Part shown: positions 3,148 through 12,673 of the stretch, piece by piece
How the letters are laid out: every line of letters starts with the position of its first letter
How positions within the stretch are numbered: position 1 is the stretch's first letter
Virus record (IMG/VR): IMGVR_UViG_2778261463_000010
Location: 1-15,679 of that record
DNA from: a virus
Taxonomy: Duplodnaviria; Heunggongvirae; Uroviricota; Caudoviricetes
Length of the DNA: 15,679 bases
Reading direction: 5' to 3' (one strand)
Position numbers and translations under genes: made by a program
The notes under the pieces: generated by a model
Database searches by the model: none
What the model was told of the DNA's origin: nothing
What the model saw: only the letters and a program-made list of their open reading frames with translations

Positions 3148-3352
<205 letters not shown>

Positions 3353-4784: not shown

Positions 4785-5855
4785 TTATTTGATTTCAATT
4801 TTGTCCCACTCCCTGCCTCTGTCATCACGATACTGTGATGCCATGGTGTCCGACTTATGCCCGAGAAGATGTTGAGCAAATTTATCGCTTATCTGCTTCT
4901 CATAGAGTCTTGCAGACAAACTGCGCAACTCGTGAAAGGTTGGCGGATCCCCTTCGAAGGAGAGACCTGATGCTTTTCGTGCGCGCATAAAATACCTTGA
5001 TACTGTGCCGGATGAAAGCGGTTCACGACGAGTAGATGCAATTATGGTTTCTCCGCCAAGAATCTTTTTGCATTTATCAAGTGTTTCCTTCATTGATATC
5101 CCGAGAGCATCAACATGCAATGTTGTTGGGATGGCAATTTTTACGCCTGTTTTGCTTTGCTCGACATAAAGATATCCATCTACGATATCAGACCACTTCA
5201 TTTCGCATAAATCACCAACTCGCTGCCCGGTAACAACAGCCAGTTCCATTGCAAGTCTAAGCCAACATGGTGATGATTCTGCTGCTTGATAAATTTTCAG
5301 GTATTCGTCAGCCGTAAGTCTTGATCTCCTTACCTCTGATTTTGCAGCGCGAGTGGCTGCGACCGGGTTTGTTGTTATATGGCCTTCAGCCATAGCCTCT
5401 CGGAATGCATCGCTCAGTGTTGATCTGATTAACTTGGCTGATGCCGCCTTTCCCTCGTCTATGTATCCATTGAGCATTGCCGCAATTTCTTTTGTGGTGA
5501 TGTCTTCAAGTGGAGCATCAGGCAGACCCCTCCTTATTGCTTTAATTTTGCTCATGTAATTTATGAGTGTCTTCTGCTTGATTCCTCTGCTGGCCAGGAT
5601 TTTTTCGTAGCGATCAAGCCATGAATGTAACGTAACGGAATTATCACTGTTGATTCTCGCTGTCAGAGGCTTGTGTTTGTGTCCTGAAAATAACTCAATG
5701 TTGGCCTGTATAGCTTCAGTGATTGCGATTCGCCTGTCTCGGCCTAATCCAAACTCTTTACCCGTCCTTGGGTCCCTGTAGCAGTAATATCCATTGTTTC
5801 TTATATAAAGGTTAGGGGGTAAATCCCGGCGCTCATGACTTCGCCTTCTTCCCAT
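4785..5855 (-). CDS. int: Lambda-type tyrosine integrase Int (356 aa)
   Basis: Translation MGRRRSHERRDLPPNLYIRNNGYYCYRDPRTGKEF...REWDKIEIK is essentially the recalled lambda Int, with the catalytic C-terminal HxxR...Y region present. Confidence 0.97.
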   Translation of the reverse strand: MGRRRSHERRDLPPNLYIRNNGYYCYRDPRTGKEFGLGRDRRIAITEAIQANIELFSGHKHKPLTARINSDNSVTLHSWLDRYEKILASRGIKQKTLINYMSKIKAIRRGLPDAPLEDITTKEIAAMLNGYIDEGKAASAKLIRSTLSDAFREAMAEGHITTNPVAATRAAKSEVRRSRLTADEYLKIYQAAESSPCWLRLAMELAVVTGQRVGDLCEMKWSDIVDGYLYVEQSKTGVKIAIPTTLHVDALGISMKETLDKCKKILGGETIIASTRREPLSSGTVSRYFMRARKASGLSFEGDPPTFHELRSLSARLYEKQISDKFAQHLLGHKSDTMASQYRDDRGREWDKIEIK

Positions 5856-5949
5856 TTCTGATCCTCTTCAAAAGGCTACCTGTTACTGGTCGATTTAAGT
5901 CAACCTTTACCGCTGATTCGTGGAACAGATATTCTCTTCCATCCTTAAC
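5833..5949 (-). pseudogene. xis: 3' remnant of excisionase gene xis (about the last 38 codons); 5' half replaced
   Basis: Minus strand encodes ...VKDGREYLFHESAVKVDLNRPVTGGLLKRIRNGKKAKS*, overlapping the int start as in lambda. Reading upstream, an in-frame TAG occurs with no start codon, and the sequence diverges from lambda beyond about 5949. Confidence 0.8.
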
Positions 5950-6123
5950 GCAGATCGGATGATTACCGGTTCGCTACCAGGGAAGAACGGGAAGGAAAGG
6001 TGAGCACGAATCTGATTTTCAAGGAGTGTCGCCAGAGTGCCGCGATGAAGCGGATGTTGGCATTTTATCGCGGCAATTTTCAATAGACTATGTACATAAA
6101 AATATCATTTTTTTAATACATGT

Positions 6124-6315
6124 CTAATTATTGGACGAAATTGGTTTTTGCTTTGGTTTAGTTAGCCTAGCAATCAAGCCAGAGGCAATAATGATGATCC
6201 AAGCAATTTGATGCAATGCTACTCCAATATAAGAACCTTTATAGATAATAAAGGCATAGATCGCTAGAAACGAAATAAATATCCATAACGAAAGTTGATA
6301 AATTTTGGCGCGCAT
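6124..6315 (-). CDS. Hypothetical small membrane protein (63 aa, two predicted TM helices, basic C-terminus)
   Basis: ORF MRAKIYQLSLWIFISFLAIYAFIIYKGSYIGVALHQIAWIIIIASGLIARLTKPKQKPISSNN. Two hydrophobic stretches. No clear Shine-Dalgarno. Lies in the AT-rich island, divergent from the lipoprotein operon. Confidence 0.45.
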   Translation of the reverse strand: MRAKIYQLSLWIFISFLAIYAFIIYKGSYIGVALHQIAWIIIIASGLIARLTKPKQKPISSNN

Positions 6316-6571
6316 ATTTAATCCAATCAATCAGAAAGACGAGTAATCATAGAGGTACTATCACCCGGGTAACTATTGCTATTATGAACGGATAGGATAG
6401 AGGCTTCAATAACATATGCATCAAGTATGATGGAATATGTAGGTGAAAATGACTTGTGTCAAATTTGTGGAAATGAGTACCATGTTTCTCTGAAATTGAT
6501 GTCGTTAATGGCTAGTGATAGTGAACTTTTTTACTTTATAATTCCTTTGGTTATAACAATAAGGTAAATTT

Positions 6572-7132
6572 ATGAAGAAGATAATATTATTAGCCATGAT
6601 TATTGGTTCTTTAACAGGTTGCGCTAGTGTGCCACCATTGAATTTTTCAACACCTAACGTGGGAGTTAGCCAGAAAAAAATAGATGCTGAAATTAAGTCA
6701 TTAACGGTATCACTTGCTCGTCCAGATGAGCAGAAAGGGGATATCACTGCTGGTATGGAGGCTATAACTCCAATTTGGCGTGAATCTTTGCAGGAAGCAC
6801 TCGACCGAATGACTATTTTTCGTGATAGTTCACCAAATACGGTTAGCTTAAATGTTAAAGTGTTGGCTCTTGACGTTCCTGCTTTTGGTGTTTCAATGAC
6901 AACTAAAGCAATTGCAAGGTATGAAATAATCAACCGTGCGAATGGTGATATTATATATACGCAGGATATTGAGTCTACCGGTACTGTTCCAGCCAGTTAC
7001 GCATTCTACGGTATTGTTCGAGCACGCGAATCTGTTAATCGCGCGGTGCAAAACAACATAACGCAGTTCTTGCAAGCATTAGAAAGTGTTGATCTTTCTC
7101 GTCCAATGTTTCCTGTTAGGGTAGCTAAATGA
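6572..7132 (+). CDS. Hypothetical lipoprotein (186 aa), first gene of a two-gene operon
   Basis: Signal peptide MKKIILLAMIIGSLTGC with lipobox LTGC. AAGG 6 nt upstream of the ATG. AT-rich codon usage. Stop overlaps the next start (ATGA). Confidence 0.8.
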   Translation: MKKIILLAMIIGSLTGCASVPPLNFSTPNVGVSQKKIDAEIKSLTVSLARPDEQKGDITAGMEAITPIWRESLQEALDRMTIFRDSSPNTVSLNVKVLALDVPAFGVSMTTKAIARYEIINRANGDIIYTQDIESTGTVPASYAFYGIVRARESVNRAVQNNITQFLQALESVDLSRPMFPVRVAK

Positions 7133-7635
7133 AGCGATTATTCGTAATTGCTCCACTCTTAGTGTTGGTTGGATGCGCACAAAATATATCGCCAAATAGT
7201 TATTCTGTTGGCTCTGTGGGCATGGTTAATCGAACTATCGCTGGTACAGTTATTAGTGCTAGGGGGGTTGATATCAGTGGGACTTCCGCGTTAGGCGGGA
7301 CTGCTGGGGCTGCCGTGGGGGCAACCGCTGGTTCTGCGCTTGGTGGGGGAGTTCGTTCTAATATCGTTGGTGCCGTTGGTGGTGCAGTCATTGGTGGTAT
7401 TGCCGGGGCAGCAATCGAATCTTCAGCAACAAAACAAACAGGCATGGAATATGTTGTCGAAACTGAGAATGGGAATTTAATGACCATTGTTCAAGGCAAA
7501 GATCCGTTATTTACTCAAGGAAGTAAGGTCCTTGTTTTATACGGAAACCCTTCTCGCATAATAACAGACCGCGTCACTAACATACCTTTTGATTTTGTAA
7601 AATCAATTCGTAATAATAAAGTCATCGGAGCTTGA
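7129..7635 (+). CDS. SlyB/Pcp-like glycine-zipper outer-membrane lipoprotein (168 aa)
   Basis: Lipobox LVGC. Gly/Ala zipper GTSALGGTAGAAVGATAGSALGGG...GAVGGAVIGGIAGAAI followed by a beta-rich C-terminal segment (NGNLMTIVQGKD...SKVLVLYGNP). This matches the domain order I recall for SlyB. Start overlaps the upstream stop. Confidence 0.8.
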   Translation: MKRLFVIAPLLVLVGCAQNISPNSYSVGSVGMVNRTIAGTVISARGVDISGTSALGGTAGAAVGATAGSALGGGVRSNIVGAVGGAVIGGIAGAAIESSATKQTGMEYVVETENGNLMTIVQGKDPLFTQGSKVLVLYGNPSRIITDRVTNIPFDFVKSIRNNKVIGA

Positions 7636-7770
7636 ACAACTCCGGTGACTTCTGCGCTAAACGGGGACGTTTATGCGCACATACAATCCAAACTCTCTTC
7701 TCCCTTCACAGATGCAGAAATGCACCTGCGATTTTTTGCATCCAGCGTCTGACCTCTGCGGAGGTGAAGC

Positions 7771-8226
7771 GTGAACCTACCACAAGATGGCATCAAACTG
7801 CATCGCGGTAACTTCACCGCTATCGGCCAGCAGATCCAGCCTTATCTGGAGGACGGAAAATGCTTTCGCATGGTGCTTAAACCGTGGCGTGAGAAACGCA
7901 GTCTTTCCCAGAATGCACTCAGCCACATGTGGTACAGCGAAATCAGTGAATACCTCATCAGCAGGGGGAAATCGTTCGCTACCGCAGCATGGGTAAAAGA
8001 TGCTCTCAAACACACATACCTCGGTTATGAAACCAAGGACCTGGTTGATGTCGTAACCGGCGAAATCACTACTATCCAGTCGTTACGCCATACCTCCGAT
8101 CTTGATACCGGAGAGATGTATATCTTCCTGTGTAAGGTTGAAGCCTGGGCGGTGAATATTGGCTGCCACCTGACTATTCCGCAGAGCTGCGAGTTCCAGC
8201 AGCTCCGCGACAAACAGGAGGCGTAA
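7771..8226 (+). CDS. ybcN: NinB-family protein (YbcN-like, 151 aa)
   Basis: GTG start with GGAGGTG upstream. Shares the RSLxQN motif with lambda NinB. Gene order matches DLP12 ybcN-ninE-ybcO-rusA. Confidence 0.85.
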
Positions 8227-9175: not shown

Positions 9176-9260
9176 AGTCAGAGATAACAATCAACTAATA
9201 CTGTTTTATTGATTTTTGCTTGTAATTGGCGTTCTGGTCTGATTTTTGTGGAGTAAGTTG

Positions 9261-9644
9261 ATGCGTGATATTCAGATGGTTCTTGAGCGTTGGGGAGCGT
9301 GGGCGGCTAATAATCATGAAGATGTGACCTGGTCGTCCATTGCCGCCGGTTTTAAGGGATTAATTACTTCAAAAGTAAAATCTCGCCCGCAATGTTGTGA
9401 CGATGACGCGATGATCATTTGCGGGTGCATGGCCCGTCTGAAAAAGAACAACAGCGATTTGCACGATTTATTAGTAGATTATTATGTAGTCGGTATGACA
9501 TTCATGTCACTGGCAGGTAAGCATTGCTGCTCTGATGGTTATATCGGGAAAAGGTTACAGAAGGCTGAGGGTATAATTGAAGGGATGTTAATGGCATTAG
9601 ATATCCGGTTAGAGATGGATATCGTTGTTAATAACTCTAATTAA
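9261..9644 (+). CDS. quuD: Late-gene antiterminator Q (QuuD-like, 127 aa)
   Basis: ATG at 9261 with GGAG 9 nt upstream. Cys-rich zinc-binding-like region ([12 protein letters not shown]...HCC). Position immediately upstream of the late region. Confidence 0.85.
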
Positions 9645-9659
9645 TATGCCAATTGTTTA

Positions 9660-9695
9660 CTAAAAATTATTAAAAATGGGGCGTTGAGACGCCCC
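9660..9695 (-). terminator. Intrinsic terminator on the minus strand, downstream of the porin gene
   Basis: Stem GGGGCGT/ACGCCCC (9678-9684 and 9689-9695) with a 4-nt loop, followed on the minus strand by AUUUUUAAUAAUUUUU. Confidence 0.6.
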
Positions 9696-9832
9696 CAAAA
9701 ATAAAGGGTAATATATAACAGAAGGTTTATATAGTTAGAAGCAAGGTTGTGCTCCTAAAGGAAGTGGCTTGAGGGAGCCACTTATATGTTGGGGAGGCAA
9801 AGCCTCCCGCAACATATCTTTTAGTAATCAAA
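9660..9832 (-). ncRNA. ipeX: Candidate IpeX-like small RNA / structured 3' region downstream of the porin gene
   Basis: Three consecutive stable stem-loops (9678-9695, 9762-9783, 9784-9817) in the porin 3' intergenic region. In DLP12 the sRNA IpeX is reported at the 3' end of nmpC. Boundaries not determined. Confidence 0.4.
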
Positions 9833-10915
9833 TTAGAACTGGTAAACCATACCTACAGCAACGATATCATCGGTAGCAACGCCAGATGCTTTCGTGAAAT
9901 CGCTCTTATCAATCAGGTTGATTTTGTAATCAACAAAAGTGGACATATTTTTGTTGAAGTAATAGGTTGCACCTACATCAATATATTCAACCAGGTCCTG
10001 ATCACCCCACGCACCCAAGTCTTTTCCTTTAGATTGCAGGTAAGCAACGGACGGACGCAGACCGAAGTCGAACTGATATTGTGCAACTACTTCGAAGTTT
10101 TGTGCTTTGTTGGCAATATGGTTATTACCAAAAACAGTCATGTTCTGGGTTTCAGAATAGGTGGTAGCCAGATAGATGTTGTTCGCATCATATTTCAGAC
10201 CAGCTGCCCATACTTCAGCATTTTGACCAGATGCATTCAGGCTGTTGTTACCGTAGATAACCTGATTATTAGTGCGGTCAGATTTAGCATAGGTTGCACC
10301 TACACCGAATCCTTCATACTCATAAGTAGTGGAGAAACCGAAACCATCACCATTAGCTTCAGTTACGTCAGTGCGGTCATTTTTACCCTGATACTGAGCA
10401 GCAAAGTTCAGACCATCAACCAGACCAAAGAAGTCATTGTTACGATAAGTTGCAACACCTGTGGTGCGACCAGTCATGAATACATCTGTTTGGGTCCAGG
10501 TATCGCCACCGAATTCTGGCAGAACGTCGGTCCATGCACCAATATCGTATGCTACACCGTAGTTACGGCCATAATCGATGGAGCCGTAGTCACCGAATTT
10601 CAGGCCAGCGAAGGCAAGACGGGTTTTATCTTTGGAGGAACCTTGAGATTCAGCGCGGTTGCCTTTGAATTCATATTCCCACTGACCGAAACCAGTCAGT
10701 TGATCGTTGATTTGGGTTTCACCTTTGAAGCCAAGACGGGCATAAGTAGTATCACCATCATCTGCATCATTAGAGGAGAAGTAGTGCTTAGCATTAACTT
10801 TCCCGTACAGATCCAGCTTGTTACTGTCTTTATTATAAATTTCAGCTGCCTGAGCAGACATCGCCATCAGTACTGATGCAGCTACAGCAGAAATTGCCAC
10901 TGTTAATTTTTTCAT
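9833..10915 (-). CDS. nmpC: Prophage-encoded general porin of the NmpC/Lc/OmpD family (360 aa precursor), apparently intact
   Basis: Signal peptide [23 protein letters not shown], then [16 protein letters not shown]...; Gly/Tyr-rich beta-barrel pattern; C-terminal ...VGMVYQF. The ORF track's longer form starts at 10975. Confidence 0.93.
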
Positions 10916-11341
10916 CGTGAGCCCTTTTTTTGAACTATTATTAAAAAATGATGTCACTGCGCGATAAATATTCATCTAATCAATGTGATTATTTCAAGAT
11001 GTAAGTTTTGGTTTCTCATTTGATTTGTGAAGTAGATCTCTATTTTTATCTGAACTTTTTCTATCGAATCCTATTCATGGCTCTTGGCTGAATAAAAATA
11101 AATCTATTAGCCAATTTATATTAATGGCTGTTATTTATAAGCGCTCTATAATTTGAAGATTCAATTTAAACCAGCTAAAAATAACGCTGGAAATTATTTG
11201 TTGGTTATTTGTTGAGATTTGCTTATGTATTTGTAGTGGTGTTTTCAATACTCGGTAGCATTCTCGCAAATATCATTTAGTGGTTTACGTACGTAAAAAA
11301 TTGGTTATGCTGTTAAGAGTGGTTACTTCGTCACACAGCTT

Positions 11342-11375
11342 AAACCCGCCGTCGAGCGGGTTTTTCCATTTTTTG
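11342..11375 (+). terminator. Intrinsic terminator-like hairpin plus U-tract upstream of the lysis cassette (possible tR'-type site)
   Basis: Stem AAACCCGC/GCGGGTTT with loop CGTCGA, followed by TTTCCATTTTTTG. About 130 nt upstream of the holin start. Confidence 0.55.
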
Positions 11376-11502
11376 AGTCTCGATATTAGCTGATAACCCA
11401 ATACCTGAGTTATTCACTGACTCCGAGTCTGTTACGTTTCTGCTTTTTTGCGATACGTTGTATTCCCTCAATTTACACCCGCTTTGTCTGCGAGGTGGGG
11501 TT

Positions 11503-11718
11503 ATGAAATCCATGGATAAGTTAACAACGGGTGTCGCCTATGGCACCTCAGCAGGTAGTGCCGGTTACTGGTTTTTACAGCTGCTCGATAAAGTCACGCC
11601 CTCACAGTGGGCAGCAATAGGTGTGCTGGGTAGCCTGGTATTTGGCCTGCTGACGTACCTGACAAACCTTTATTTCAAGATTAAAGAAGATAAGCGCAAG
11701 GCTGCGAGAGGTGAATAA
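11503..11718 (+). CDS. essD: Class II holin (P21 S-type pinholin, EssD-like, 71 aa) with dual-start motif
   Basis: Translation [24 protein letters not shown]...[15 protein letters not shown] resembles recalled S21. Met1/Met4 dual start. GAGGTGGGG SD. Confidence 0.88.
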
Positions 11719-12215
11719 TGCCTCCATCATTACGAAAAGCCGTTGCTGCTGCTATTGGTGGCGGAGCAATTGCTATAGCATCAGTGTTAATTACTGGCCC
11801 AAGTGGTAACGATGGTCTGGAAGGTGTCAGCTACGTACCATACAAAGATATCGTTGGCGTATGGACTGTATGTCACGGACACACCGGAAAAGACATCATG
11901 CTCGGTAAAACGTATACCAAAGCAGAATGCAAAGCACTCTTGAATAAAGACCTTGCCACTGTCGCCAGACAAATTAACCCGTACATCAAAGTCGATATAC
12001 CGGAAACAACGCGCGGCGCTCTTTACTCATTCGTTTACAACGTGGGTGCTGGCAATTTCAGAACATCGACGCTTCTTCGCAAAATAAACCAGGGCGATAT
12101 CAAAGGCGCATGTGATCAGCTACGTCGCTGGACATATGCTGGCGGTAAGCAATGGAAAGGTCTCATGACTCGTCGTGAGATTGAGCGTGAAATCTGTTTG
12201 TGGGGTCAGCAATGA
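11718..12215 (+). CDS. rrrD: SAR endolysin (P21 R-type lysozyme, RrrD-like, 165 aa)
   Basis: N-terminal Gly/Ala-rich signal-anchor-release segment [20 protein letters not shown] followed by a T4-lysozyme-like catalytic region. Start overlaps the holin stop (TAATG). Confidence 0.93.
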
Positions 12216-12673
12216 ACAGAGTAACCGCGATTATCTCCGCTCTGGTTATCTGCATCATCGTCTACCTGTCATGGGCTGTTAATCATTACCGTGATAACGC
12301 CATTACCTACAAAGCCCAGCGCGACAAAAATGCCAGAGAACTGAAGCTGGCGAACGCGGCAATTACTGACATGCAGATGCGTCAGCGTGATGTTGCTGCG
12401 CTCGATGCAAAATACACGAAGGAGTTAGCTGATGCGAAAGCTGAAAATGATGCTCTGCGTGATGATGTTGCCGCTGGTCGTCGTCGGTTGCACATCAAAG
12501 CAGTCTGTCAGTCAGTGCGTGAAGCCACCACCGCCTCCGGCGTGGATAATGCAGCCTCCCCCCGACTGGCAGACACCGCTGAACGGGATTATTTCACCCT
12601 CAGAGAGAGGCTGATCACTATGCAAAAACAACTGGAAGGAACCCAGAAGTATATTAATGAGCAGTGCAGATAG
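12212..12673 (+). CDS. rzpD: Spanin inner-membrane subunit Rz (153 aa)
   Basis: N-terminal TM helix plus coiled-coil region. Near-identical to recalled lambda Rz. Start overlaps the endolysin stop. Confidence 0.93.
12432..12614 (+). CDS. rzoD: Spanin outer-membrane lipoprotein Rz1 (60 aa), embedded in Rz in the +1 frame
   Basis: Lipobox VVGC and proline-rich [13 protein letters not shown], entirely within Rz. Confidence 0.85.

What the first reader, a model, noticed from the sequence alone, without database searches (positions are those of the whole stretch)
11342..11375. Strong intrinsic terminator just upstream of the holin: possible tR'-type antitermination target
A GC-rich 8-bp stem followed by TTTCCATTTTTT sits about 130 nt upstream of the pinholin start, on the late-gene strand. 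This is the arrangement expected for a terminator that Q-modified RNA polymerase reads through. Candidate promoter hexamers upstream are weak (for example TTTACG-16-TATGCT at 11284-11311), so I cannot decide whether the late promoter is here or directly after Q.
Basis: seen in the sequence. Interest (0 to 1): 0.35.

Follow-up and report, generated by a model that had tools for sequence, protein, structure and literature searches.

The report
Late-operon terminator of a lambdoid prophage
The hairpin is the ordinary stop signal just after the late-gene promoter of a lambda-like prophage, the one the phage's Q protein overrides to switch on the lysis genes; the same unannotated module is in about half of complete E. 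coli genomes.

Summary
The hairpin and T tract are at 11342-11375 as described. Alone they are not statistically remarkable (fold z = -1.9). Comparison with other phages identifies them. Window 11283-11365 is homologous to the stretch of Shiga-toxin phage 933W annotated as pR', qut and first rho-independent terminator, which there abuts the Q stop codon. The window's Q is 78-81% identical to the 933W-type Q and belongs to Pfam PF06530, the Q21 family.

It is separated from Q by a 1.64-kb stretch carrying a reverse-strand porin cassette (lc/nmpC type).

The inferred start is about 11318, so the hairpin spans +25 to +46 and the terminated leader is about 48 nt.

Across 67 distinct relatives, 56 carry a hairpin plus T tract after the conserved transcribed block, against 1.3% of shuffles. 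These use more than eight different stem sequences. The palindrome over the -35 region changes one-for-one with the helix-turn-helix segment of Q.

No transcript data exist for this module. In Sakai Shiga-toxin phages the homologous hairpin is read through to a second terminator that this window lacks. Verdict: supported, ordinary, essentially known in kind.

The parts
9261..9644 (+). Q antiterminator gene (127 aa from the ATG; the ORF listing gives a TTG start at 9246). Q21 family, 933W/DLP12 subtype.
   Evidence: Pfam PF06530, E 4e-53. PHROG 79 'anti-termination protein Q-like'. Q21 structures 6P18/6JNX match at E 7e-7 for the single sequence and 1e-9 for a profile, residues 20-100. 78-81% identical to the Q of Shiga-toxin phages.
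9645..11283 (-). Stretch of 1.64 kb between Q and its promoter, carrying the reverse-strand cargo cassette. It holds the porin gene 9833-10975 (-), the porin 3' UTR with a terminator-like hairpin at 9695-9678 (-), and the porin promoter region with the CRP site that PA-2 annotates (about 11023-11043).
   Evidence: Pfam Porin_1, E 4e-153. 95-98% identical to the lc region of phage PA-2 and to phage 434 / K-12 DLP12 nmpC. Terminator-like site on the - strand. The left junction lies inside the Q 3' end, near 9620.
11284..11297 (+). Perfect 14-bp palindrome TTTACGTACGTAAA at about -34 to -21. Candidate Q-binding element, overlapping the -35-like hexamer TTTACG (11284-11289).
   Evidence: Unique in the window. 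Six or more palindrome classes map one-to-one on the Q helix-turn-helix class in 110 loci. Corresponds to the first half of the annotated pR' of 933W.
11306..11311 (+). -10 hexamer TATGCT of the late promoter pR'.
   Evidence: Homologous to TATCAT of the annotated pR' of 933W. In most variants listed, the hexamer in this register keeps T1, A2 and T6 while positions 3-5 vary; one class reads CAGTAT.
11318..11318 (+). Inferred transcription start (+/- 2 nt).
   Evidence: It lies 7 nt after the -10. It corresponds to 933W position 736 of locus L007, which is 258 nt upstream of the end of the T tract of the second terminator. That matches the 258-nt PR'-tR' transcript mapped by dRNA-seq and Term-seq in Sakai (PMC7547250; sequence). 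This is an inference, not a measurement on this element.
11315..11336 (+). Conserved initial-transcribed block AAGAGTGGTTACTTCGTCACAC. It probably holds the sigma70-dependent pause and Q-loading determinant. The best -10-like hexamer is TACTTC at 11324-11329 (TACATT in 933W, overlapping the annotated qut).
   Evidence: Shared by all sampled copies regardless of palindrome class, though the 20-mer AAGAGTGGTTRCWTYGYCAC was itself the search pattern. Unique in the window, 0 expected. GenBank J02580 (PA-2) annotates 11318-11338 as a CRP site.
11342..11363 (+). Terminator hairpin AAACCCGC-CGTCGA-GCGGGTTT, at +25 to +46 of the inferred transcript.
   Evidence: -11.5 kcal/mol. Homologous to the annotated first terminator of 933W. 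Identical in K-12 DLP12. 56 of 67 distinct relatives keep a hairpin plus T tract, against 18 of 1340 shuffles.
11361..11374 (+). U-rich tail TTTTTCCATTTTTT. The predicted release point is about 11365-11367, giving a leader RNA of about 48-50 nt.
   Evidence: Read from the sequence. It meets the scan rule of at least 5 T in 8. The end point is an inference.
11376..11502 (+). Rest of the late leader. No second terminator-like site is present.
   Evidence: The scan shows no + strand terminator-like site between 11376 and 11502. K-12 lacks 16 bp here, at 11431-11446. The 933W-type second terminator and StxS region are not homologous to this stretch.
11503..11718 (+). First late gene: S21-type pinholin with a dual start (71-aa antiholin from 11503, 68-aa holin from 11512).
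   Evidence: Pfam PF04971, E 2e-35. Annotation of phage 434.
11718..12215 (+). SAR endolysin (lysozyme).
   Evidence: Pfam PF00959, E 8e-46. Annotations of phage 434 and of K-12 rrrD.
12212..12673 (+). Rz i-spanin (with embedded Rz1).
   Evidence: Pfam PF03245, E 3e-54. Annotations.

Best explanation
Window 11284-11375 is the late regulatory module of a lambdoid prophage whose Q protein belongs to the Q21 family (933W/DLP12 subtype). A sigma70 promoter fires at about 11318; its -35-like TTTACG overlaps a 14-bp palindrome, and its -10 is TATGCT. Without Q, RNA polymerase transcribes the conserved leader block and meets the hairpin at +25 to +46 with its U tract. A fraction of polymerases, not measured here, releases a leader RNA of about 48 nt, so the lysis genes 128 nt downstream stay low.

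With Q the sequence of events is as follows. Q binds the palindrome, probably as a symmetric dimer. It loads onto polymerase paused in the conserved block. As shown structurally for Q21, it then narrows the RNA-exit channel so that the terminator hairpin cannot form. Transcription continues into pinholin, endolysin, spanins and the rest of the late operon.

Q itself lies 1.64 kb upstream, because a reverse-strand porin cassette sits between the gene and its promoter.

Shown here: the sequence features, the homology, the co-variation and the conservation of a terminator-like hairpin. Inferred: the start site, the pause, the binding mode, the termination efficiency and the Q-dependence.
For: Feature present.

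Gene context. Q (PF06530), porin, S21-type holin, lysozyme and Rz are identified.

Homology. Window 11283-11365 is 77% identical to 933W 20665-20746, annotated as pR', qut and terminator directly after Q (sequence). Q is 78-81% identical to the Q of Shiga-toxin phages.

Start site. The Sakai PR' start and the 258-nt transcript were mapped by dRNA-seq and Term-seq (PMC7547250). That places +1 at the position equivalent to window 11318.

Promoter and Q belong together. The Q helix-turn-helix class maps one-to-one on the palindrome class in 110 loci, with or without intervening cargo.

Terminator conserved. 56 of 67 distinct relatives have a strict hairpin plus T tract within 75 nt of the block, against 18 of 1340 shuffles. 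More than eight stem sequences are used, and most start at +25. Species of other enterobacterial genera (Serratia, Trabulsiella, Kosakonia, Atlantibacter, Phytobacter) carry non-homologous hairpins at the same place. One double compensatory change is seen in POCJ13, A-U to C-G.

Breadth. The module is identical in K-12 DLP12 upstream of essD and present in 2658 of 5426 complete E. coli genomes. It is also in plaque-forming phages (434, PA-2, mEp332, the PhiR series), which need Q-dependent late transcription.

Literature. The DLP12 lysis operon is reported to be under the phage Q-type antiterminator (PMC7918800, citing Rueggeberg 2013). The Q21 nozzle mechanism is from bioRxiv 10.1101/651190 and PMC6606751.
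Against: There are no transcript 5' or 3' ends for this element. Nothing for essD is in the E. coli Term-seq supplements held.

In Sakai Shiga-toxin phages the PR' transcript was mapped to a terminator 258 nt downstream. So the homologous first hairpin, which has a better U tract than this one, is read through by a sizeable fraction of polymerases in lysogens. Here the U tract is interrupted by CCA.

The fold is only marginally better than shuffles (z = -1.9). RNAalifold finds no covariation in the core class, where the stem is nearly invariant.

The best -10-like hexamer in the leader (TACTTC) matches only 2 of 6 consensus positions and lacks the T at position 6. The pause element is therefore not identified.

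A common natural variant (PA-2 type, G to T at the position of 11358) breaks the stem (-5.3 kcal/mol) in a viable phage. Tight termination is thus not essential.

This prophage seems to lack its early region, so whether Q is ever made here is unknown.
Confidence: 0.78

Rival explanations
1. The hairpin is mainly the 3' end of a small leader RNA with a job of its own, comparable to lambda 6S RNA or to StxS of Shiga-toxin phages. Termination would then be a way of making that RNA rather than of gating the late genes.
For: The PR' leader of Sakai Shiga-toxin phages yields an Hfq-binding regulatory sRNA (PMC7547250). The predicted leader here ends in a hairpin plus U tail, as Hfq-dependent sRNAs do. 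The transcribed block is more conserved than the promoter spacer.
Against: StxS is the 3' 74 nt of a 258-nt transcript that ends at the second terminator. That part has no homologue in the window. No Rfam family matches; the best is isrK at 11.8 bits, E 3.6, against a gathering score of 50. The conservation of the block is equally explained by contacts with host RNA polymerase and sigma70 and with the conserved N-terminal body of Q. The two roles do not exclude each other.
Confidence: 0.1
2. The hairpin is an insulator. It would stop transcripts that arrive from upstream, that is, early transcripts reading past Q and antisense through the porin gene. It would have no cognate promoter of its own next to it.
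For: It faces the + strand and lies downstream of 1.6 kb of reverse-strand cargo. Any readthrough from Q would cross that cargo.
Against: The promoter homology to 933W pR' and the start site mapped in Sakai. The -10 hexamer keeps A2 and T6 in all the classes listed, and T1 in all but one. The palindrome co-varies with Q. In 933W-type phages with no cargo the same hairpin sits 48 nt after the Q stop, inside the pR' transcript. An insulating side effect is compatible with the main explanation.
Confidence: 0.05
3. The conserved block next to the hairpin (11318-11338) is a CRP site that regulates the porin gene, as GenBank J02580 (PA-2, 1986) annotates. On this view the hairpin is incidental.
For: The GenBank annotation. 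The block contains TCACA and a weak left half-site. As I recall, expression of the PA-2 Lc porin is catabolite-sensitive; I did not check this here.
Against: The block and the hairpin are conserved in phages that carry no porin gene at all: 933W, SfII, PhiR55_1, phiP27 and several enterobacterial species. Most relatives read GCCAC, not GTCAC. The left half matches TGTGA in 2-3 of 5 positions only. The site lies about 340 bp from the porin start, and a much better CRP-like site sits at about 11023-11043.
Confidence: 0.03
4. It is a chance hairpin in an AT-rich intergenic region with no function.
For: z = -1.88 only. 19 terminator-like sites were found in the window against 14.9 expected.
Against: Conservation, replacement by non-homologous hairpins at the same position, and the 43-fold excess over shuffles.
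Confidence: 0.02

Closest known systems
pR'-qut-terminator region of Shiga-toxin phages 933W, H-19B and Sakai Sp5/Sp15 (RefSeq NC_000924 features 20666-20748; PR' start mapped in PMC7547250)
   Same: Homologous sequence (77% over 83 nt), with the same order of parts: palindrome TTTACG-NN-CGTAAA over the -35 region, -10 of the form TAnnnT, conserved block AAGAGTGGTTAC..., and a CCCGC/GCGGG hairpin with T tract starting at about +25. The Q type is the same (78-81% identical)..
   Different: In 933W the Q stop codon lies inside the palindrome, with no cargo. Here 1.64 kb carrying a reverse-strand porin cassette intervenes, and the Q C-terminal tail differs (127 against 144 aa). 933W has further terminators; the transcript mapped in Sakai ends at the second one, 258 nt from the start, and gives StxS. 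The window has only the first hairpin, no StxS region, and a U tract interrupted by CCA. The cargo after the module is stx and tRNA genes there, and directly the lysis genes here.
Phage 21 late cassette (Q21, PR'21 with QBE and sigma-dependent pause element, tR'21). Structures 6P18, 6P19, 6JNX.
   Same: The Q protein is of the same Pfam family (PF06530). The N-terminal body and the first helix of the DNA-binding motif align (Q21 residues 20-100). The logic is the same: a promoter-embedded Q site, a promoter-proximal pause, then an intrinsic terminator before an S21-type pinholin lysis cassette.
   Different: Q21 binds two tandem direct repeats (6-bp TGAGCA subsites; 8-bp subsites in the crystal) between -35 and -10, through a helix-turn-[long loop]-helix. 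Here, and in all sister classes, the site is two-fold symmetric, lies further upstream (-34 to -21), and the turn is short. No DNA homology to PR'21 was tested, because no phage 21 sequence was fetched.
Lambda PR'-6S RNA-tR'
   Same: Same regulatory principle: a constitutive late promoter, a short terminated leader, and Q-dependent readthrough into S-R-Rz.
   Different: Qlambda belongs to an unrelated protein family (PF03589; PMC9388147). Lambda terminates at +193 (PMC4914094), against about +48 here. There is no sequence homology.
E. coli K-12 DLP12 essD-rrrD-rzpD lysis cassette and its Q-like regulator (ybcQ/quuD)
   Same: The module 11284-11375 is identical base for base in K-12 upstream of essD. 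The literature reports that the operon is controlled by the phage Q-type antiterminator, by RpoE and by Hha (PMC7918800).
   Different: In K-12 nmpC is interrupted by IS5 and the leader lacks 16 bp. By recall, DLP12 sits at another chromosomal site. I could not read the primary papers (Rueggeberg 2013, 2015), so I do not know whether they name this hairpin.

Membership tests
Q-dependent late regulatory cassette of lambdoid phages (Q gene, PR' with QBE, sigma-dependent pause element, terminator, late genes) | A Q antiterminator gene upstream on the same strand | tested here: met
   PF06530, E 4e-53. PHROG 79. Q lies 1.64 kb upstream rather than adjacent.
Q-dependent late regulatory cassette of lambdoid phages (Q gene, PR' with QBE, sigma-dependent pause element, terminator, late genes) | A sigma70 promoter between Q and the late genes | tested here: inconclusive
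   TTTACG-16-TATGCT matches 8 of 12 consensus positions and is below the scan threshold. It is homologous to the annotated 933W pR', whose start was mapped in Sakai. The -10 hexamer keeps A2 and T6 in all the classes listed. Activity of this copy was not measured.
Q-dependent late regulatory cassette of lambdoid phages (Q gene, PR' with QBE, sigma-dependent pause element, terminator, late genes) | A Q-binding element embedded in the promoter and specific for the cognate Q | tested here: met
   The palindrome at -34 to -21 changes one-for-one with the Q helix-turn-helix class in 110 loci. Binding itself was not tested.
Q-dependent late regulatory cassette of lambdoid phages (Q gene, PR' with QBE, sigma-dependent pause element, terminator, late genes) | A -10-like sigma-dependent pause element in the initial transcribed region | tested here: inconclusive
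   A conserved block is present at 11315-11336. The best hexamer, TACTTC, matches 2 of 6 positions; it reads TACATT (4 of 6) in 933W and TACTTT in others.
Q-dependent late regulatory cassette of lambdoid phages (Q gene, PR' with QBE, sigma-dependent pause element, terminator, late genes) | An intrinsic terminator between the pause site and the first late gene | tested here: met
   Hairpin plus T tract at 11342-11374. Conserved in 56 of 67 relatives against 1.3% of shuffles.
Q-dependent late regulatory cassette of lambdoid phages (Q gene, PR' with QBE, sigma-dependent pause element, terminator, late genes) | Readthrough of the terminator depends on Q | not testable with these tools
   This needs a reporter assay or in vitro transcription. 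There is only indirect literature support for DLP12.
Intrinsic (Rho-independent) terminator | G+C-rich stem, short loop, immediately followed by a U tract of 7-9 nt | tested here: met
   8 pairs (5 G-C), a 6-nt loop and -11.5 kcal/mol. The tail is UUUUUCCAUUUUUU, that is 5 U then an interruption.
Intrinsic (Rho-independent) terminator | RNA 3' ends map to the U tract | not testable with these tools
   No entry for essD or nmpC in the E. coli Term-seq supplements held. An RNA of about 48 nt would escape standard libraries.
StxS small RNA locus of Shiga-toxin phages | A 258-nt PR' transcript ending at a second terminator, whose 3' 74 nt form StxS | tested here: not met
   Homology stops right after the first hairpin. 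There is no second terminator-like site before the holin gene.
Q21 protein family (for the Q that acts on this terminator) | Sequence membership in Pfam PF06530 and similarity to the Q21 structure | tested here: met
   The family assignment of PF06530 is from PMC9388147.
Q21 protein family (for the Q that acts on this terminator) | QBE made of two tandem direct-repeat subsites, as in PR'21 | tested here: not met
   All the main classes found carry inverted repeats of 8-14 bp, a few of them imperfect. The protein is a member by sequence, but its DNA site is built differently.
Rfam families (isrK, Trp leader, others) | Score at or above the family's gathering threshold | tested here: not met
   No hit at gathering score in this region. 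Best below threshold: Trp_leader 20.8 bits (gathering 41) and isrK 11.8 bits (gathering 50).

The most novel reading that the evidence does not exclude
The 933W/DLP12-type Q proteins are Q21-family members by sequence. They may form a sub-class that reads a two-fold symmetric Q-binding site lying over the -35 region, through a compact helix-turn-helix, instead of the tandem direct repeats and helix-turn-[loop]-helix of Q21.

Their terminator hairpin begins about 25 nt from the start. Q would therefore have to load and become termination-proof within about 20 nt, on the shortest late leader described (about 48 nt).

The gap between Q and this promoter would also be a preferred slot for lysogen-expressed, reverse-strand cargo genes: porin, lipocalin and others.
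Probability: 0.4. Interest if true: 0.5.

Novelty: already known. Interest (0 to 1): 0.22.

Why it matters
For annotation: a promoter-terminator module that gates a lysis cassette is present in about half of complete E. coli genomes, including K-12 (upstream of essD), and carries no annotation there. One old GenBank record labels part of it as a CRP site.

For biology: the module sets the basal and induced level of holin, endolysin and spanins. In K-12 these have been linked to biofilm formation and vesicle production (PMC7918800). A common natural variant (PA-2 type) is predicted to weaken the terminator.

For the study of Q proteins: the paired variation of Q helix-turn-helix and promoter palindrome gives a ready-made specificity table for a large, medically relevant branch of the Q21 family. 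The same module heads the late operon of many Shiga-toxin phages.

None of this changes the picture of how lambdoid late control works.

Tried and rejected
1. Phage 82 as the closest model. I first recalled that the 933W and DLP12 Q proteins were 82-like, and read PMC4914094 for the 82 pause at +25. PMC9388147 assigns PF06530 to the Q21 family and PF06323 to the Q82 family, so the 82 analogy was dropped. The coincidence of +25 with the start of the hairpin carries no weight.

2. Covariation in the stem. RNAalifold on 24 core variants found 0 compensatory pairs. The core stem is nearly invariant, so conservation was tested instead by hairpin replacement and shuffles.

3. Rfam, at gathering and at permissive thresholds: nothing significant.

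4. E. coli Term-seq supplements (PMC7815308): no essD or nmpC entry. PMC10448788 and PMC11879457 held nothing on this locus. Plunkett 1999 and Guo 1991 are not held. The supplements of PMC4914094 are not held.

5. Mapping the Sakai start-site coordinates on NC_002695.2. The published coordinates fall inside Q in the current record and so do not fit it; probably they refer to an older version. The start was therefore inferred from the 258-nt length.

6. Single-sequence AlphaFold model of Q: pLDDT 42.6, unusable. No fold search was made. I ran no further search on building an alignment, because Q structure is peripheral to the finding.

7. A leader peptide or attenuator. The ORF 11308-11394 (28 aa) is annotated 'hypothetical protein' in some phage records. 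Its ATG lies inside the -10 hexamer, upstream of the inferred start, and is absent in the other promoter classes. Rejected.

8. Genome-collection scan. About 35 chance matches are expected for the degenerate 20-mer, and the actinobacterial and planctomycete hits are coincidences in coding sequence. Only the enterobacterial hits were used.

9. The first local BLAST returned nothing because the locus files were not yet on disk. It was repeated.

Full report
**Observation**

The feature is real and at the stated coordinates. The scan lists a + strand site at 11342-11363, AAACCCGC-CGTCGA-GCGGGTTT, followed by TTCCATTTTTT (sequence). The hairpin alone folds at -11.5 kcal/mol. It lies 128 nt before the ATG of an S21-type pinholin at 11503 (Pfam PF04971).

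By itself it is not statistically striking. Ten of 200 dinucleotide shuffles fold as well (z = -1.88). Terminator-like sites are also about as frequent in the window as in shuffles (19 against 14.9).

**Context**

The window holds chromosomal genes, then a lambda-type integrase, then a short stretch without recognisable immunity or replication genes. After that come ninB, ybcO, rusA and ylcG, followed by:

- Q at 9261-9644;
- a porin gene on the opposite strand at 9833-10975;
- a 527-bp intergenic region;
- pinholin, SAR endolysin and Rz, then bor, a DUF1398 gene and Nu1.

This is the late-region layout of phage PA-2, of the sequenced phage 434 isolate, and of the K-12 prophage DLP12. The intergenic region is 95-98% identical to them.

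**Identity of the element**

A sensitive DNA search with 11276-11380 found the module in 363 phage records. Many are Shiga-toxin phages. In the 933W reference record the aligned stretch (20665-20746) is annotated as three features directly abutting Q (sequence):

- pR', 20666-20693;
- qut, 20707-20714;
- 'possible rho-independent terminator', 20726-20748.

The window's Q is 78-81% identical to the Q of these phages. By Pfam it belongs to PF06530, which Yin et al. define as the Q21 family (PMC9388147). It also matches the Q21 structures.

I had first recalled these proteins as phage-82-like. The literature check shows that is wrong, so I do not use the phage 82 data.

**Where the promoter is**

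Only 33 bp lie between the Q stop and the porin terminator. Neither the palindrome nor the conserved transcribed block occurs elsewhere in the window.

I collected 119 further copies of the module from viral contigs by scanning for the 20-mer AAGAGTGGTTRCWTYGYCAC, and some from genomes. All copies therefore share that block by construction. What precedes it is not constrained by the search. In most variants listed, the -10 hexamer keeps T1, A2 and T6 while positions 3-5 vary; one class reads CAGTAT.

Upstream of the -10, each group has its own inverted repeat followed by an A tract:

- TTTACG-TA/AT-CGTAAA
- GCGTACGC
- GCGG-T-CCGC
- TGGAATTCCA
- TGTTATAACA
- ATTCGT-T-ACGAAT
- TGTAATTACA

In 110 loci the Q gene could be found upstream. 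In these, the 27-residue segment of Q that aligns with and follows helix H5 of Q21 falls into classes that map one-to-one on the palindrome classes. The N-terminal 75 residues are conserved throughout. This holds whether Q abuts the promoter or lies 0.6-2.4 kb away. So the module at 11284-11375 is the cognate late promoter of the Q at 9261-9644, and the palindrome is the likely Q-binding element.

**Start site and geometry**

Sy et al. mapped the PR' start in Sakai Shiga-toxin phages and a 3' end 258 nt downstream (PMC7547250). In the 933W sequence, 258 nt back from the end of the T tract of the second annotated terminator falls 7 nt after the -10. The equivalent window position is 11318 (+/- 2).

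The published coordinates fall inside Q in the current Sakai record, probably because they refer to an older version. This is therefore an inference from the transcript length.

With +1 at 11318 the hairpin spans +25 to +46, and release in the first U run gives a leader of about 48 nt. Lambda terminates at +193 (PMC4914094).

**Is the hairpin a terminator?**

Of 67 distinct downstream sequences, 56 carry a strict hairpin plus T tract within 75 nt of the block, against 18 of 1340 shuffled controls. Most start at +25. More than eight stem sequences occur. Species of other enterobacterial genera (Serratia, Trabulsiella, Kosakonia, Atlantibacter, Phytobacter) have unrelated hairpins at a similar place. 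POCJ13 shows one double compensatory change.

Within the core class the stem hardly varies, and RNAalifold finds no covariation.

Most of the 11 exceptions are one-nucleotide derivatives of the hairpin. The most frequent is the PA-2-type G to T change in the 3' arm, found in 18 of 131 sampled copies, which lowers stability from -11.5 to -5.3 kcal/mol.

**Limits**

No transcript ends are available for this element. The 258-nt Sakai transcript shows that the homologous first hairpin is not a complete block in lysogens. The window has no second terminator-like site before the holin gene. Its U tract is also interrupted, so some basal expression of the lysis genes is plausible. That fits reports that the DLP12 cassette is expressed and is also controlled by RpoE and Hha (PMC7918800).

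The sigma-dependent pause element is not identified. The best -10-like hexamer here is TACTTC, against TACATT in 933W.

**Mechanism proposed**

The promoter fires at about 11318. Without Q, polymerase terminates at the hairpin with an efficiency that is not known. With Q:

- Q binds the palindrome;
- it loads on polymerase paused in the conserved block;
- as shown for Q21, it forms a nozzle on the RNA-exit channel that prevents the hairpin from forming (bioRxiv 10.1101/651190; PMC6606751);
- the late operon is then transcribed.

The DNA site differs from that of Q21, which is two tandem direct repeats. This is a difference in recognition, not in principle.

**Rivals**

- A function of the leader as a small RNA is possible but unsupported. 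The StxS part is absent, and no Rfam family matches.
- A pure insulator role is contradicted by the promoter evidence.
- The CRP-site annotation of 11318-11338 in the PA-2 record is contradicted by conservation of the block in phages without a porin gene.
- Chance is contradicted.

**Novelty and verdict**

The kind of element is textbook. The homologous copy in 933W is annotated. The identical copy in K-12 belongs to an operon already reported to be under a Q-type antiterminator. I therefore file the finding as already known and of low interest.

Two things this analysis adds for this family:

- the placement of the promoter next to the terminator rather than next to Q;
- the side observations, namely symmetric Q sites co-varying with the Q helix-turn-helix, and a reverse-strand cargo slot between Q and pR' in 60 of 69 dereplicated loci.

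Noticed in passing
window 9645-11283, and loci L003-L134: The gap between Q and its promoter is a recurrent cargo slot. Of 69 dereplicated Q-to-module gaps, 4 are empty, 60 hold ORFs on the reverse strand only (the '+' ORFs in the mixed class look like antisense shadows of the porin gene), and 5 hold a forward ORF. The cargo here is an lc/nmpC-type porin; elsewhere it is a lipocalin or proteins of unknown function.
   Followed up: partly
window 9490-9563 (Q residues about 78-101) and 11284-11297: The helix-turn-helix segment of Q and the promoter palindrome vary together in six or more classes, while the N-terminal 75 residues of Q and the transcribed block stay constant. The sites are inverted repeats, unlike the tandem repeats bound by Q21.
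   Followed up: partly
window 9600-9644: The left junction of the porin cassette lies inside the 3' end of Q, near 9620. Q proteins with different cargo therefore have different C-terminal tails (127 aa here, 144 aa in 933W, 113-128 aa elsewhere). In 933W the stop codon lies inside the palindrome.
   Followed up: partly
position equivalent to window 11358; L002 (PA-2) 1770: A G to T change in the 3' arm of the hairpin is found in 18 of 131 sampled module copies, including phage PA-2. It breaks the middle of the G-C stem (-11.5 to -5.3 kcal/mol) and predicts a leakier terminator.
   Followed up: partly
window 11318-11338: GenBank J02580 (PA-2, 1986) annotates this stretch as a CRP-binding site. 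It is the conserved initial-transcribed block of the late promoter and is present in phages without a porin gene.
   Followed up: yes
window 11308-11394: A 28-codon ORF that several phage records annotate as 'hypothetical protein'. Its ATG lies inside the -10 hexamer and is absent in the other promoter classes, so it is probably not a gene.
   Followed up: yes
window 11431-11446: E. coli K-12 DLP12 lacks these 16 bp of the leader (CTGCTTTTTTGCGATA). The window and PA-2 have them.
   Followed up: no
window 9678-9832: The porin 3' untranslated region holds three hairpins (about 9760-9785 and 9793-9809, plus the terminator at 9695-9678 on the - strand). From memory, the equivalent region of DLP12 and PA-2 was described as ipeX, an inhibitor of OmpC/OmpF expression. 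I did not verify this, and Rfam has no match.
   Followed up: partly
window 4785-7771: A lambda-type integrase (4785-5855, - strand) lies next to a ybhC-like pectinesterase gene. There are no recognisable N, cI, cro, O or P genes before ninB, only ORFs of unknown function (PHROGs 12521 and 13877). The prophage is probably defective, and it is unclear how Q would be expressed.
   Followed up: partly
window 3229-3299: Rfam naRNA4 (REP-derived nucleoid-associated RNA) scores 60.7 bits, just above its gathering score, in the chromosomal part of the window.
   Followed up: no
loci L138-L177 (genome-contig scan): The degenerate 20-mer of the conserved block also matches a conserved coding sequence in freshwater Actinomycetota and a few other MAGs. 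About 35 chance hits are expected for this pattern in 596 Gb, and these loci have no hairpin, no -10 and no Q gene.
   Followed up: yes
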